From sequence record NC_021190.1: DNA of 46,150 nucleotides. One strand, 5' to 3'. Below are positions 21,001-27,000 of this stretch, in pieces. Made by a program: the position numbers. Source of the DNA: Enterobacteria phage phi80. Every line of letters starts with the position of its first letter. Positions within the stretch are counted from its first letter, which is position 1.

Positions 21001-24000
21001 ATCGTTGTGAATAACTCAACCCGGCCTCCGACAATCTACACCATTAATGCTTATTCGGCGTGCAGGTTTGACGGGGCCAATACGAGGATAAACGCAGGGG
21101 GGACCTCCACTGGCACAGGCTCTCCGGGAGGGGTAACGAATACTGGAATTTCCTTAACCGCGATAAATACAGCGGCCTATGACTGATTGATCGTTTTGGG
21201 CGATCAATAACTGATAATTGATCTATCAAACCAATTATACCCACCTCTTTCATGTTGGTATTGTCTAAGTTCATGAATACCTCTGGATACTATCAAAATG
21301 AGAAAACTGATTATCTGCATGGCAGGCGCTGTCATGCTTACAGGATGCGCTGGCGTAATTGAGAAACAGGAACCAGTTTGCAGCGGCACTGCAATCGTTG
21401 GCGGTCAGGAAACTACGGTTCAGATTTACGGTGTGCGTAAACAAAACAACCAGACGCAGTACCGGGCTGGATATCCTTTCAGCTGGCGCTGGGTAAGTGC
21501 GAATACATTTACCGAAACAACCTGCAAATAACCCACTACGCTTAAACATAAACCTCGCTCCGGCGGGGTTTTTTTATTGCCTGGAGAAAATATGCTTTAT
21601 AACACCGGCACCATCGCCATTAATAGAAATACCGCCACCGGGACGGGTACAAACTGGACGGCACCGGCCAGCCAGGTTCGCGCTGGCCAGACAATTATCG
21701 TGATGTCTAACCCGGTGCAACTGTTCCAGATTTCATCCGTGAACAGCGCCACGTCAATGACGGTTACGCCTGCCGCTTCCCCGGCGCTGAGCGGCCAGAA
21801 GTACGGCATTCTGGTATCAGATAATATCTCGGTTGATGGGCTGGCGCAGGCCATGTCGCAGCTTATCAAGGAGTATGACGAGAATATTGGTGCGTGGGAG
21901 ACGTTCGCCACAACCTCAGCCAACCAGAACATTACCGTTACGATCAATGGCACCAGTTTATCAATCCCGGCTCTTGGGAAATTACTGCAGAAGGGGAGCA
22001 ACGGAGCTTTGCCGGTTAATCAAGGTGGTACTGGCGCACCCTCGGCATGGGAAGCCACAAAAAATCTAAAAACATTAAGGACGATGGAGCGAAGATTTGG
22101 ACCAGGTGATGAGCCAAGAGATGGCGGCTGGTCCAATACTATTGGTTTTGTGGTGGGGCAAACGTCCACAGGGGCAAATGGAGCGTTTGTTGATTTTACA
22201 AGTTTCGATCAGTCGGCCAGGCTACAGATCATTGGTTTTTATTCTGACTCTCAAAACCACAATGGTGTCGGGTATAATCTGTGGCATCCCAACTTACAAA
22301 CATGGTATCCATTCACAACGCTCAGGGATAACAGAAACACAACCGTAGATTCGAACGGTTTCATAAAGGTTGCATCTCCCATTGTAAAGATATTCAGGGA
22401 TGGTAGCTATGAAACGAATGAAGAGTCGGAGGGAATTGATGTTACCCACATAAATACAGGTGAGTATTTGATAGCAGGTTGCACCGGCCTTAATGCAGAT
22501 GCAGCATGGGGAGGGATCGATGGTGGATTTGAAATTCCGGTAGACAGGAACAAGCTCGCGCGCATCTGGCTTGATTATGAAGTGAATGCTGATGGCTCTG
22601 TTCTGGTAAAAACATATCACCGTACACACCCGAAAGCGCCTGAGTTTGCAAGAAACGAAATCAACGGGTTAACTAATGGCGAGCCAGTAGACATTCCTGC
22701 AGATTCTTTTGTTTCCGTACGTGTTGAAATGCCACCAGATAGTATCTGGAACCAGCGACAGAATGATGCTTTGGAAGCAGACGTGCAGAAACCTACCTCA
22801 TAAGTAAAACCGCCGCAAGTCGTATGCAAGAACGTGCGGCGGCAGGCTGGCGTTCGTTCGATAGTGCGAGTATTGAATGATTTCCAGCCGCTGCGGATTC
22901 TACATATGCAATATGACAAAACAATGCTCTTATTCTGAAACCAACCACATATCGGACTCTTCAAACATTTCCTCCAGCATGCGGTTCAGTTTTTCCCGAT
23001 CGCTTTTGCTGGCATCGCTGTTTAAGCCGTTCGCCTGCATCGGCTTAACCTTCACTTCTGCATCCGGAAAGATCCGGTGCACTCGCTTTGTTAACTCATT
23101 CAGAATTATTTCTCTGGCACCTGTTAATCCTTCAACATTCCGTTTGTCGTACACCAACTCAACGAACATACCGCCTCCAAAGCAACAATGATTTTGCACG
23201 CAATTTATACTGTTTATTTATACAGTGTCAACGGTTGGGCACGTAGCTTTTTAAGGAAGGTTTTTGGGGCATGTATGGGGCATAAATGCCAGTTTTGGGG
23301 CATGGTTGGGACATTTTAACTCATATGAACTTAACCGAATTTCATATGGAGGCGTCTTATAATGCACTGATTAACCTAAAGAAAACACATGCTCTTGGGC
23401 GTTCTTTAGTGATTTTTAAAATGCCCGCGTCACGCAGTTAAAGTGGCGGGCATACTCTTCAAGGCTGGTGATACCCAACCGCACCCATTTAGGATGCGAC
23501 CATTGCGGCAGACCGATGTAAATCATAACGCGTGAAGGATCTCTTCCACGCTACGCACACGGGCGATGCGCGGGTAGATATGATTAATGCTGTTATTGTG
23601 TTGCTCGGCGCTGGCGGCACTACAGGCGTCTTCGGCAATCACCAGATTAAAGCCAAGTTCCCAGGCATTGCGGGCGGTGGATTCAACACCGATATTGGTC
23701 GAGATCCCACATAACACAATTGTATCGATACCTCGGCGGCGTAACCGCACCTCGACCATATTGCAGGATTTTACCGTTGGGTAATTTCATCCATCCATCA
23801 CCACTGGCAAAAAAAGCCATATCCGGTATCTGATTTTCCCCTGTTCCCACATCCCGTTTTGCCGCTTCTCCCAAACCAACCTTTCAAATATTTTTCTGAA
23901 TCAGGTGATATTTCGCCTCTTCTCCTGTTTTTACAACAGGAGAAGCACTCATGATTTACGGTTATGCCCGAGTATCAACAAACCACCAGGACACTGAATT

Positions 24001-27000
24001 GCAACTAACGGCGCTCAAGTCAGCGGGTTGTGAGAAAATTTTTGAAGAGCATGCCAGCGGGAGGAAATCGAATCGGCCGGTTCTAAAACGGCTGATCGCC
24101 ACTATGCAGCCGGGGGATGAACTGGTGGTCTGGAAGCTGGACAGGATAGGCCGCAACGTTCTGCATGCGCTGTTGATGTTCCAGCAGTTACAGGAAAAGG
24201 GTATCAACTTCCGCAGTATTACAGATGGTGTAGACCTGAAAACAGCAAGTGGTCGCTATAATTTCCGTAATATTCTTTCTGCTGCGCAGTATGAATCTGA
24301 TTTGAATAGCGAGCGTACCTTAGCAGGGCTGGCCGTAGCCAGGGCAAAAGGGCGAGTTGGTGGTCGCAGGCCTAAGTTCACGGATGAGCAATGGCGGGAA
24401 ATGGGGGAGCGGATGGCAACCGGTGAATCACGACAAAGCGTATCAAAAACGTATGGAGTAGGGCTCTAAACTCTGTATAAAAAGTTTCCAGCTAGCTGAT
24501 AACGGGAAAGAAACAGAGAAGGGCACAAATATTGTGTACTTTAATGTGCCCTTTAATTTATTGATTGGTGGTTGAATTGTCCGTAACTTTTTGATTTAAG
24601 TGCAAATTTCTAATAAATTAGAACACTTTCTTAAATTGTCATTTGGCATATTACGAACAATTCCGCGTAAAAACGTTCTGTTACGCTAAACCCTTATCCA
24701 GCAGGCTTTCAAGGATGTAAACCATAACACTCTGCGAACTAGTGTTACATTGCGTGTAGCTTTGAGTGGGCAACTTTGTGTACACTTTTGTGTACCCAAA
24801 AACAAAAATGTGTACCCATTCAATGATCACCGACACAAAGCTCAGGAAGGCGCTCGGCAAGAAAAGAGATGATATCGAGATTATTTCTGATTCGCACGGG
24901 CTCAACGCCAGAATCAGCCAGGCCGGAAAAATATCATTTTTCTATCGGTATCGCTGGGCCGGTAAAGCGGTAAAACTCAATGTTGGTGATTATCCTGCAA
25001 TGAGTATCACCCAGGCAAGAGAGCGTCGCCAACAATTCAGAAACTGGTTAACTGAGGGACTGGATCCGCGAGAGCAGGTGAAGCTGGATAAGCAGACCCG
25101 ACAGGAAGCGATGTCCGTTGCCGAAGCGTTCAATTACTGGATTGAAAGGCACTGTATCGCTAACGGGCTAGTTAAAGTCGATTACTATCGCCAGGTGTTT
25201 GAGAAACATATCGCCGAACCGATGAAGAATGTCAAAGTCGATAACACAGCGAAAATGCACTGGATCAACGTCTTCGATTCTATAGAAAGCAGGGTGATGG
25301 CTCATTACATGCTTTCGCTGTGCAAACGGGCGTTTAGGTTCTGCGTTAACAGAAGTGTGATCGCCTCAAACCCACTCGAGGGATTACTGCCATCTGATGT
25401 CGGGCAAAAGCCTAAAAAGAGAACTCGCAGGATGGACGATGACGATCTGCGCAAAATCTATCAGTGGTTGAAAAGCCATATGTCGATAGAGTCCGTTTTC
25501 CTGGTGAAATTTATTATGCTTACCGGATGCCGTACGGCTGAGATTCGACTTAGTGAGAGATCATGGTTTCGATTGGATGATAATGAGTGGGTCGTGCCTG
25601 CGGGCAGTTATAAAACTCGGGTACATATTAGAAGGGGACTCTCAGACGCCGCCGTTAACCTGGTCAGAAATCACCTCAAGAAAATAAACACCAATCACCT
25701 GGTGACTTCACAACGTAAAATTGATGGCGGGATCAAAGATTCGCCCGTTCATTCACCTGTGGCATCCAATTACGCCCGTTCTATTTGGAATGGAACAGGT
25801 ATGGCAGAGTGGTCGCTTCATGATATGAGGCGGACGATAGCCACAAATCTCTCTGAGTTAGGTTGCCCGCCGCACGTAATTGAAAAGCTGCTCGGGCATC
25901 AGATGGTGGGGGTTATGGCGCATTACAACCTTCATGACTATATCGATGATCAGAAACACTGGCTCCGCGTTTGGCAGAGCCATCTTGAAGAGATCATCGG
26001 AGAGCCCTTCAGTTAATTTATCTTCTTTTTATCCTCCCACTCTTTGATTGACTCAGAGCGCCAGCGGTTAGGGTTGCCGGGCCAGTCAGGGGGTGGGAAC
26101 GGGCATACGAAGCCCCGAGGCATTGTGTCTGCACTTTGCCATGACCAAAGGGTTTTGCGTGAAATTTTGTAGCGACTGGTCAGGTCTGACGTTACCAAAA
26201 TATCATCCATAGCTCTCTCCAGTTGCCCGTTCGGGCCATTCAAAATCTTTTTCAACCAACCTGCCCGGGCAGGGAGCGGAGACGGCGCATGCCGGTCATC
26301 GCTGTGGCCACGTAGCTCGCCTTTCGGTTCACCACCTCCACCCAGACTTTCACGCCTTCAACCTTCACCGTATAAGTCTCTTTCATCTTGCTTCGCCCAT
26401 AGTCGCCATATGTTTGCAAGTGAGCTGCCAGCGCAACATCGCAAGCGCGGCGACCAATAGGTGATTGCTTACTGCGATTAATCAGCTTCATCATCACTGC
26501 ACTCCCAAAGTGGCTACGACATCACTCGCTGTTTCGCGGGTACTGCCTTTGCTGGATATAGCCCGGCGAGCACTGACGCGGTGCAGATTGAAGCCGTGCT
26601 GTTCGTAAAGTTCAATTACGCGCGGTGCGGTAGAATTGCTGATCACCACTTTTGCCCCCCGCTGGTGGGCTGCCACACAGCTTTCCGCAAGCTCTACCTG
26701 GCTATCCCATGAGAACCCACCAGCCGCGTAGTTAGTGAAACCAGCGGTGCCGGGAAGCGGCTCATAAGGCGGATCGCAGTAAACGACGTCACCATCACCT
26801 GCCAGCGCGAGCGTGCGCCTGAAGCCTGCATTCATGAATACGCATGCGTGAGCCTTCCGCTTAAATGCCTTGATCTCTTCTTCCGGGAAATATGGCGCTT
26901 TATATTTCCCAAAGCCGACGTTAAAAAAAACCGTCCAGGTTGTAACGAATCAGGCCGTTGAAGCAGTGCCGATTGAGGTAAAGGAATGCTGCTGCACGCT

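What the first reader, a model, noticed from the sequence alone, without database searches (positions are those of the whole stretch)
23919..24499. Serine invertase with a single in-frame ochre codon and a 27-bp palindrome at its 5' end
The invertase ORF ends at TAA (24467-24469), yet the next nine codons in frame encode TLYKKFPAS, the conserved end of the Hin/Gin recognition helix, so one stop codon lies where these enzymes have Ser. Immediately upstream is a perfect palindrome CTTCTCCTGTT/AACAGGAGAAG that could be a crossover or operator site. No partner site or tail fiber segment is adjacent, so this looks like a recently inactivated remnant of an invertible tail fiber switch.
Basis: partly seen in the sequence, partly recalled or inferred. 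Interest (0 to 1): 0.55.

Follow-up and report, generated by a model that had tools for sequence, protein, structure and literature searches.

The report
Dead orphan DNA invertase in phage phi80
This is the leftover of a tail-fibre "flip switch" in phage phi80: the flipping enzyme's gene has lost its invertible DNA segment and then picked up one premature stop codon. The palindrome in front of it is a conserved hairpin over the ribosome-binding site, not a recombination site. The case is ordinary and well explained.

Summary
The ORF 23951-24469 is a Pin/Gin-family serine invertase that stops at TAA 24467-24469. Every readable relative among about 100 loci has TCA (Ser) at that position. The frame then continues TLYKKFPAS to TGA at 24497-24499. 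The same TAA occurs in independent phi80 prophage assemblies and on 788 public contigs, so it is not a sequencing error.

The window is phage phi80/Lula, and the gene sits between the tail-fibre region and attP/int. The stop removes the recognition helix of the DNA-binding domain.

The true crossover site is not the palindrome. It is a pix-like 26-mer at 23866-23891. In about 59 relatives an inverted partner lies 1.3-2.3 kb upstream across a tail-fibre segment. phi80 has no partner. It keeps only 46 codons of the segment's tail-fibre gene, fused to a captured chromosomal yecD'-yecE' fragment. Relatives with the same fusion (mEp237, wild E. coli prophages) still have an intact gene, so decay happened in two steps.

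The 11+5+11 palindrome (23919-23945) is conserved in 92 fetched loci, 19 distinct upstream versions. Its right arm holds the Shine-Dalgarno sequence, and it makes this the most occluded of 44 ribosome-binding sites tested in the phage. It is most likely a translational throttle.

This is a new member of a known kind and of low interest.

The parts
23951..24469 (+). Truncated serine DNA invertase ORF (172 aa plus TAA). It has a full resolvase catalytic domain with Ser9 and the first 34 of 45 positions of the HTH_7 domain.
   Evidence: Pfam Resolvase E=3e-39. HTH_7 scores 18.7 bits, below the 23.8 cut-off. Gin structure 3uj3 matches at E=1.4e-56. RefSeq calls it WP_133279781.1, recombinase family protein.
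24467..24469 (+). Premature ochre codon TAA. It arose by a C-to-A change at 24468 from TCA (Ser173).
   Evidence: Relatives have TCA. The residue aligns with Ser in Gin ...LSTLYKK.
24470..24499 (+). Orphaned 3' end of the gene: TLYKKFPAS plus the original TGA stop. This is the recognition helix of the HTH.
   Evidence: It is identical to the 3' end of the intact 182-aa alleles. With the stop repaired, HTH_7 rises to 38.3 bits.
23919..23945 (+). Hairpin-type inverted repeat of 11+5+11 nt. The right arm contains the Shine-Dalgarno AGGAG (23938-23942), 8 nt before the ATG.
23904..23917 (+). Small conserved dyad GGTGA-TATT-TCGCC just upstream of the large hairpin. Its role is unknown. It may overlap a weak -10 element.
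   Evidence: The block GGYGAYNYTYCGCC is conserved in 19 upstream variants, and 96.8% of cells pair.
23866..23891 (+). Single remaining crossover site (pix/gix/hix-like 26-mer): TTCTCCCAAACC AA CCTTTCAAATAT.
   Evidence: In L002 the same sequence forms the right-hand inverted repeat of a 1.85-kb tail-fibre segment. A partner is found in about 59 relatives. The e14 pix site shares TTCTCCCAAACCAAC. The site is unique in the window.
23737..23874 (-). Remnant (46 codons) of the alternative tail-fibre C-terminal gene (Sv'-like) that began at the crossover site.
   Evidence: 45/46 residues identical to the tail protein of the intact segment in L002. DNA homology to L002 starts at 23737.
23431..23753 (-). 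Captured E. coli chromosomal fragment: the 3' end of yecD and the first ~96 nt of yecE. It overlaps the Sv' homology by 17 nt at the junction.
   Evidence: 96.3% identical to MG1655 yecD-yecE. RefSeq annotates a partial isochorismatase. The same sequence flanks yecE-integrated Stx prophages.
24620..24636 (+). attP core of phi80. Identity to the prophage junction next to yciI ends here (the alignments stop at 24636-24639).
   Evidence: The mEp237 attP annotation maps to this position. phi80 record X04051 matches at 100%.
24766..26016 (+). phi80 integrase gene. This is context, not part of the switch.

Best explanation
The window is the genome of temperate phage phi80 (Lula). Positions 23866-24499 are the decayed control end of a Pin/Gin-type invertible tail-fibre switch. 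In intact relatives, a 182-aa serine invertase encoded just outside the segment recombines two inverted 26-bp sites. This flips a 1.3-2.3 kb segment that carries alternative tail-fibre C-termini and their assembly genes.

In the lineage that led to phi80, mEp237 and some wild E. coli prophages, an illegitimate join removed the segment and the distal site. The join occurred across a 17-nt overlap between the Sv'-like gene and a piece of chromosomal yecD carried from a yecE-integrated prophage. It left one site, 46 codons of Sv' and an intact but orphan invertase gene. Later, in phi80 only, a single C-to-A change turned Ser173 (TCA) into TAA. The product keeps the catalytic domain but lacks the recognition helix, so it should be unable to bind a crossover site (inferred from the family's known domain roles). 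The switch is therefore dead twice over.

The 11+5+11 palindrome is a separate, family-conserved element. When transcribed, it forms a strong hairpin whose 3' arm is the Shine-Dalgarno sequence. Its most likely role is to keep translation of the invertase very low, as expected for an enzyme that should act rarely. That role is inferred, not shown.
For: Identity of the window: phi80 int/attP record X04051 matches at 100%. The phi80 late-region record FN582354 matches at 99.4%. Prophages next to yciI-tonB-trp in K-12 lab strains match at 100%.

Stop codon: relatives have TCA. This is the only protein-changing difference from mEp237 and 730V1; the other 19-20 differences are all synonymous. All eight further phi80 copies fetched carry TAA, as does the window, and the nearest alleles carry TCA. 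The 172-aa product is on 788 contigs, always in phi80 context in the places shown.

Domain loss: HTH_7 scores 18.7 bits truncated against 38.3 bits repaired, with a cut-off of 23.8. The Ser aligns with Gin LSTLYKK.

True crossover site and its partner in relatives. No partner in the window. Sv' remnant. yecD/yecE junction. Orphan but intact alleles in mEp237, HK225 and strain 22F46.

Hairpin: it is present in 92 fetched loci, which give 19 distinct upstream variants. In that alignment 9 of 11 pairs are invariant, there is one compensatory C-G/U-A change, and the loop varies. A 71-nt stretch containing it folds at -20.5 kcal/mol, z = -3.2. The energy needed to open the ribosome-binding site is 16.25 kcal/mol, the highest of 44 SD-bearing ORF starts in the phage (mean 6.4, sd 2.7). 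Mu gin (12.3), P1 cin (10.7) and e14 pin (9.0) are also above the 90th percentile of 8.86. The hairpin stays the same in L084, whose crossover half-site and DNA-binding helix differ.
Against: No transcription start is known. The consensus scan found no promoter upstream of the hairpin, so it is not shown that the left arm is in the mRNA. Covariation support is thin: one compensatory pair, and a shuffle control reached the observed score in 28 of 500 trials. A dyad-symmetric protein-binding site would give the same conservation pattern. Loss of DNA binding by the truncated protein is inferred from homology and was not measured. The order and mechanism of the yecD join are inferred from sequence boundaries only.
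Confidence: 0.8

Rival explanations
1. The palindrome is a protein-binding operator, for example an autoregulatory site for the invertase itself, rather than an RNA hairpin.
For: It has perfect dyad symmetry. The outer hexamer of each arm (TTCTCC) equals the outer hexamer of the interior half of the crossover site TTCTCCCAAACC. The two hexamers are 13 bp apart, against 14 bp in a canonical 26-bp site (read from the sequence). Both arms are invariant across relatives. From memory, other invertases are said to autoregulate through sites that overlap their promoters.
Against: The inner half of each arm (TGTTTT) does not resemble the AAACC core of the real sites. The palindrome is unchanged in relatives whose crossover half-site and recognition helix differ, such as L084. 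It lies over the ribosome-binding site, not over a recognisable promoter. Invariance of both arms is also expected if one arm is fixed by the Shine-Dalgarno sequence and the other must pair with it.
Confidence: 0.12
2. The palindrome is the recombination crossover site.
For: Its dyad symmetry and its length are close to those of a 26-bp site.
Against: In intact relatives the inverted repeats that bound the tail-fibre segment are the 23866-23891-type sequence, not the palindrome. The palindrome lies outside the segment. The only extra copies of its half are 10-mers inside a tail-assembly coding sequence. There is no other copy in the window.
Confidence: 0.02
3. The truncated 172-aa protein is still useful, for example as a dominant-negative partner of resident Pin-type invertases, or it is completed by read-through of the TAA.
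For: The rest of the ORF is undamaged and its ribosome-binding site is intact. The allele is stable across hundreds of assemblies. The catalytic and dimerisation domain is complete.
Against: No tRNA gene, and so no suppressor, is present in the phage. The mutation is confined to one laboratory phage lineage, so there is no evidence of selection for it. phi80 has no second site to act on. From general knowledge, an ochre codon is read through poorly in wild-type E. coli.
Confidence: 0.05
4. The stop codon is a sequencing or assembly error.
For: It is a single-base difference from all relatives.
Against: The identical TAA appears in the XL10-Gold and JCL301 chromosomes, in six further independent contigs fetched, and on 788 contigs in all.
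Confidence: 0.01

Closest known systems
Pin invertase / P segment of cryptic prophage e14 (E. coli K-12)
   Same: It is a serine invertase gene placed just outside an invertible segment of alternative tail-fibre and assembly genes. The crossover site shares TTCTCCCAAACCAAC with the phi80 site. A weaker stem also lies over its ribosome-binding site, with an opening energy of 9.0 kcal/mol.
   Different: The phi80-type protein is roughly half identical to the classical invertases (51-52% measured against Gin and Cin; identity to Pin was not measured). It belongs to a distinct subfamily with a characteristic central region (...NVLHALLMFQQLQEKG...AQYESDLNSERT...). phi80 has one site, no segment and a nonsense codon.
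Gin / G segment of phage Mu and Cin / C segment of phage P1
   Same: They share the domain architecture. Gin structure 3uj3 aligns over residues 1-181 at E=1.4e-56, and the C-terminal helix STLYKK is conserved. They also share the organisation of site, short leader and invertase gene.
   Different: Identity is 51-52%. Mu and P1 lack the perfect 11-bp hairpin. In both, the systems are complete and functional.
Orphan invertases of phi80-like phages mEp237 and HK225 and of wild E. coli prophages at yciI
   Same: They have the same gene (99-100% protein identity), the same position next to attP/int, the same single crossover site and the same hairpin. mEp237 and strain 22F46 also share the yecD junction.
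   Different: Their ORFs are intact at 182 aa. phi80 alone has the TAA, and it carries a 93-nt patch of 19 synonymous changes derived from a 187-aa allele group.
Orphan or decayed invertase genes of K-12 cryptic lambdoid prophages (pinR in Rac, pinQ in Qin, pinH fragment). Cited from memory, not examined here.
   Same: They are Pin-family genes left at the tail-fibre end of lambdoid prophages without a working invertible segment.
   Different: phi80 is a fully viable phage, not a cryptic prophage.

Membership tests
Gin/Hin/Cin/Pin serine DNA invertases | N-terminal resolvase-type catalytic domain with the nucleophilic Ser near residue 9-10 | tested here: met
   Pfam PF00239 over residues 2-135, E=3e-39. 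GYARVST aligns with Gin GYVRVST, including Ser9.
Gin/Hin/Cin/Pin serine DNA invertases | Complete C-terminal helix-turn-helix (HTH_7) DNA-binding domain, including the recognition helix | tested here: not met
   As encoded, only 34 of 45 profile positions are present and the score is 18.7 bits, below the 23.8 cut-off. With TAA read as Ser the score is 38.3 bits. The gene is a member by descent, but its product is incomplete.
Invertible tail-fibre switch (G/C/P-segment type) | Two crossover sites in inverted orientation flanking the segment | tested here: not met
   There is one site at 23866-23891 and no second copy in 46 kb at up to 3 mismatches. The feature is met in about 59 relatives.
Invertible tail-fibre switch (G/C/P-segment type) | A segment encoding alternative tail-fibre C-termini and assembly proteins on opposite strands | tested here: not met
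   Only 46 codons of one variable gene remain, fused to yecD'. The complete arrangement is seen in L002.
Invertible tail-fibre switch (G/C/P-segment type) | Fis-dependent recombinational enhancer inside the 5' part of the invertase gene | tested here: inconclusive
   A crude Fis-motif scan found no pair about 48 bp apart in phi80. The same scan did not recover the annotated cin enhancer either, so it is uninformative.
RBS-sequestering translational hairpin | A stable stem that pairs the Shine-Dalgarno sequence, conserved with compensatory changes, and present in the transcript | tested here: inconclusive
   Stability and Shine-Dalgarno occlusion are met. Conservation is met, with a single compensatory pair. 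Presence of the left arm in the mRNA is not testable with these tools.

The most novel reading that the evidence does not exclude
The invariant hairpin-plus-dyad leader (23904-23945), conserved in 19 distinct upstream versions from several enterobacterial genera, might be more than a passive throttle. It could be a regulated translational lock that sets switching frequency for this invertase subfamily. Relatedly, the many intact orphan invertases that keep one crossover site next to attP (about 28 of about 90 loci) might be retained because they capture tail-fibre cassettes from resident prophages by site-specific recombination in trans. phi80 would then be a natural knockout of that function.
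Probability: 0.1. Interest if true: 0.5.

Novelty: new member of a known kind. Interest (0 to 1): 0.2.

Why it matters
It matters mainly as clean annotation. In phi80/Lula, a very widely used and widely contaminating laboratory phage, the "recombinase family protein" is a nonsense-truncated orphan invertase. It should be flagged as a pseudogene, and phi80 has no tail-fibre switching. The locus also shows stepwise decay of a phase-variation module, with each intermediate still found in nature. It points to a testable RBS-occluding hairpin that may explain how this invertase subfamily is kept at low level. None of this changes current understanding of serine invertases.

Tried and rejected
1. 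I tried to read the phi80/Lula genome paper (Rotman et al. 2012, PMC3510586, doi 10.1128/JB.01353-12) to see whether the stop was already noted. It is not held. The complete phi80 genome accessions tried, JX871397 and NC_021190, are not in the phage collection. Prior description therefore could not be checked.
2. Literature searches for an invertase RBS hairpin, or for the phi80 invertase, returned nothing relevant.
3. The promoter/terminator scan found no promoter upstream of the hairpin and no terminator at the palindrome on either strand. The terminator reading is rejected because no T-run follows either arm.
4. The Rfam scan gave only one sub-threshold chance hit elsewhere.
5. The Fis-enhancer motif scan was uninformative.
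6. I considered a LexA box. The palindrome contains CTG-N9-CAG, whereas the canonical box, from memory, is CTG-N10-CAG, so the spacing is off by one. Rejected on spacing.
7. I looked for a phage-encoded ochre suppressor tRNA and found none.
8. Extra copies of the palindrome half-site in relatives turned out to be a coding coincidence (T-G-E) inside a tail-assembly gene.
9. I compared amino-acid changes in orphan and complete loci for signs of relaxed selection. There are too few changes to conclude anything.
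Full report
**What the window is.** The 46,150-base window is the genome of temperate phage phi80 (also known as Lula). The phi80 int/attP record X04051 matches 24631-24800 at 100%. The phi80 late-region record FN582354 matches the tail-fibre region at 99.4%. Positions 23600-24639 are 99.9-100% identical to the end of a prophage next to yciI-tonB-trp, the classical phi80 attachment site, in the K-12 laboratory strains JCL301 and XL10-Gold. The finding lies between the side tail-fibre gene (21577-22803), a DinI-like gene (22930-23199, minus strand) and attP/int (about 24620-24636 and 24766-26016).

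**Checking the observation.** The ORF 23951-24469 encodes 172 residues and ends at TAA 24467-24469. The same frame continues with TLYKKFPAS to TGA at 24497-24499. Pfam finds a complete resolvase catalytic domain (E=3e-39). The HTH_7 domain is cut after 34 of 45 positions and scores 18.7 bits, below the 23.8 cut-off. Reading the TAA as Ser gives 38.3 bits. The closest solved structure is the Mu Gin invertase (3uj3, E=1.4e-56 over residues 1-181), and the stop aligns with the Ser of Gin ...LSTLYKK.

A DNA alignment with phages mEp237 and HK225 and with E. coli O19:H7 730V1 shows TCA at this codon. I fetched 14 loci from the species-representative genome collection and 80 from viral contigs. Every relative that could be read through this position has Ser there, except one with Cys, and an ORF of 181-192 residues. 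Only phi80 copies stop.

The stop is not a sequencing error. JCL301 and XL10-Gold are annotated with the same 172-aa protein, WP_133279781.1. The exact 172-aa sequence is on 788 contigs, most of them 20-50 kb, which is the size of the phage. In all six places inspected it sits in phi80 context.

The inverted repeat is also real. It has two perfect 11-nt arms (23919-23929 and 23935-23945) separated by TTTAC. It is the only perfect repeat of 11 nt or more with a short loop in the whole genome, and shuffles give 0.03 per genome.

**Where the real crossover site is.** In 730V1 (locus L002) the 182-aa invertase is preceded by a typical invertible module: a tail protein gene and two tail-fibre assembly genes on opposite strands, followed by a tail protein gene on the minus strand. 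The inverted repeats that bound this 1.85-kb module are AAACCTTGGTTTGGGAGAAG and CTTCTCCCAAACCAACCTTT. The second of these is identical to window 23865-23884.

The 26-mer TTCTCCCAAACC-AA-CCTTTCAAATAT at 23866-23891 therefore corresponds to the proximal crossover site. It shares TTCTCCCAAACCAAC with the site in front of e14 pin, and it has the AAACC-NN-GGTTT-type core seen in front of Mu gin. About 59 of about 90 relatives with enough upstream sequence have an inverted partner 1.3-2.3 kb away. The window has no second copy, whether searched with the site itself, with the distal-site consensus or with the generic core. It cannot be the crossover site.

**What is left of the segment.** Reading leftward from the crossover site on the minus strand, 46 codons (23874-23737) are 98% identical to the start of the tail protein gene at the proximal end of the intact segment in L002. 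DNA homology to L002 covers 23737-24639. Homology to the E. coli K-12 chromosome (the 3' end of yecD plus the first ~96 nt of yecE, 96% identity) covers 23431-23753. The two homologies overlap by 17 nt, which suggests a microhomology-assisted illegitimate join.

The same yecD sequence is found at the ends of records of Stx and other prophages integrated in yecE. The simplest history, which is inferred, is that the tail-fibre end of a yecE-integrated prophage, together with its chromosomal flank, was joined into the Sv'-like gene. That join deleted the rest of the invertible segment and the distal site. The junction is not specific to phi80. Phage mEp237 and several wild E. coli strains (for example 22F46, from river water in Japan) have it as well, and they carry an intact 549-bp invertase gene. 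HK225 has lost the segment through a different junction and also keeps an intact gene. Roughly 28 of the relatives appear to be orphans of this kind, and all have intact ORFs (the classification is approximate).

**How recent the stop is.** Compared with mEp237, 730V1, HK225 and 22F46, the phi80 gene differs at 20-21 nucleotides. Nineteen of these are synonymous and clustered in 24221-24313. The TAA is the only protein-changing difference from mEp237 and 730V1. The synonymous patch is 97-99% identical to a different allele group (187-aa proteins, loci L083-L098), all of which carry TCA. All eight sequences that are 100% identical across the patch are phi80 copies and carry TAA. The gene was therefore under purifying selection, and recombining with other alleles, until recently. 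The nonsense change is confined to the phi80 lineage. No tRNA gene, and so no suppressor, is present in the phage.

**Consequence for the protein (inferred).** In this family the C-terminal helix-turn-helix positions the enzyme on each half-site, and the helix beginning at the conserved Ser is the recognition helix. This rests on established knowledge of Hin and Gin and on the alignment. A protein ending just before that helix keeps the catalytic and dimerisation domain but should not recognise a crossover site. With no second site in the genome, the switch is non-functional for two independent reasons.

**The palindrome.** It is present in 92 of the loci fetched. These give 19 distinct upstream versions, from Escherichia, Citrobacter, Kluyvera, Trabulsiella, Shimwellia, Pseudocitrobacter, Apirhabdus and others. 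Nine of the 11 pairs never vary. The outermost pair is C-G in the phi80-type leader and U-A in all the others, which is one compensatory change. One sequence has a single mismatch. The 5-nt loop varies (TTTAC, TTCAT, TTCAC, TTTAT), as do the nucleotides between the stem and the ATG.

The right arm AACAGGAGAAG contains the Shine-Dalgarno AGGAG (23938-23942), 8 nt before the ATG. As RNA, a 71-nt stretch containing it folds at -20.5 kcal/mol (z = -3.2). The energy cost of opening positions -15 to +3 is 16.25 kcal/mol. That is the highest of 44 SD-bearing ORF starts in the phage (mean 6.4, sd 2.7, 90th percentile 8.86). Mu gin (12.3), P1 cin (10.7) and e14 pin (9.0) also exceed that 90th percentile. 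Some divergent relatives with different leaders score 3.9-9.5.

No T-run follows the stem on either strand, and no terminator or promoter was predicted there. Rfam has no matching family. The most likely role is a translational throttle that occludes the ribosome-binding site. This fits the need to keep an invertase scarce even though it lies downstream of strongly expressed late genes.

This role is inferred. The transcription start is unknown, and the covariation evidence amounts to one pair, with shuffle controls reaching the observed score in 28 of 500 trials.

The main rival is a dyad-symmetric protein operator. The outer hexamer TTCTCC of each arm equals that of the crossover half-site, which is suggestive. 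Against this, the inner parts differ, and the palindrome does not change in relatives whose half-site and recognition helix are different, such as L084.

**Comparison with known systems.** This is a Pin/Gin/Cin-type tail-fibre inversion system by descent, with the same enzyme fold, site type and gene order. It belongs to a distinct protein subfamily, about 51-52% identical to Gin and Cin. In phi80 it fails three defining features: a complete DNA-binding domain, two sites and an invertible segment. Its closest analogues are the intact orphan invertases of mEp237 and HK225 and, from memory, the orphan or fragmentary pin genes of K-12 cryptic prophages. I could not check whether the phi80 genome paper already noted the truncation.

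**Verdict.** The remnant-of-a-switch reading and the Ser-to-stop reading are right. The palindrome was mis-assigned, and a segment remnant and the true site were missed. This is an ordinary, well-explained case of module decay in a laboratory phage. The conserved RBS hairpin is a small, testable side result.

Noticed in passing
window 26494-27379 (minus strand); T-run at 26923-26930: A Dam-like DNA methyltransferase (Pfam PF02086 on both pieces) is split into 152-aa and 113-aa ORFs by a run of 8 T, read GAC GGT TTT TTT TAA. With 7 T it would read DGFFNVGFGKYK straight through. This is a second apparently disrupted gene, or a slippery homopolymer, close to int.
   Followed up: partly
window 24221-24313: Compared with the other 182-aa alleles there are 19 substitutions in 93 nt, all synonymous. 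The patch is 97-99% identical to a 187-aa allele group (L083-L098). The phi80 invertase gene is therefore a recombinant mosaic.
   Followed up: yes
window 23431-23753: A piece of the E. coli chromosome (yecD 3' end and yecE 5' end) is carried inside the phage genome. It is the same sequence that flanks yecE-integrated Stx prophages, which suggests past aberrant excision and recombination between prophages.
   Followed up: partly
L107 (GCA_004355015.1), 3001-6416: In one assembly the phi80 prophage end carrying the truncated invertase is followed by yqiJ/yqiK-like genes instead of yciI. This may be integration at a secondary attachment site, or a rearrangement.
   Followed up: no
L072 / mEpX1 (invertase at 4001-4546): The mEpX1 invertase is a chimera. 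Its first ~65 residues and its leader are Gin/Pin-like, and the rest is identical to the phi80-type protein. Its different leader also has a TTCACC...GGTGAA stem over the ribosome-binding site.
   Followed up: partly
relatives L016, L024, L025, L030, L042, L050, L057 (site about 85-60 nt upstream of the invertase ATG): The interior half of the proximal crossover site varies sharply (for example ...CCAAATG...GAAACG...TTAAAGC). The central AA and the exterior half stay constant. This is the pattern expected if recombination with different partner or secondary sites has exchanged the left half.
   Followed up: no
window 23904-23917: A small conserved dyad GGYGA-N4-TCGCC lies directly upstream of the large hairpin in all 19 leader variants. 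Further upstream, many variants have a CTGA...TCAG / CCTG...CAGG dyad. Their function is unknown.
   Followed up: partly
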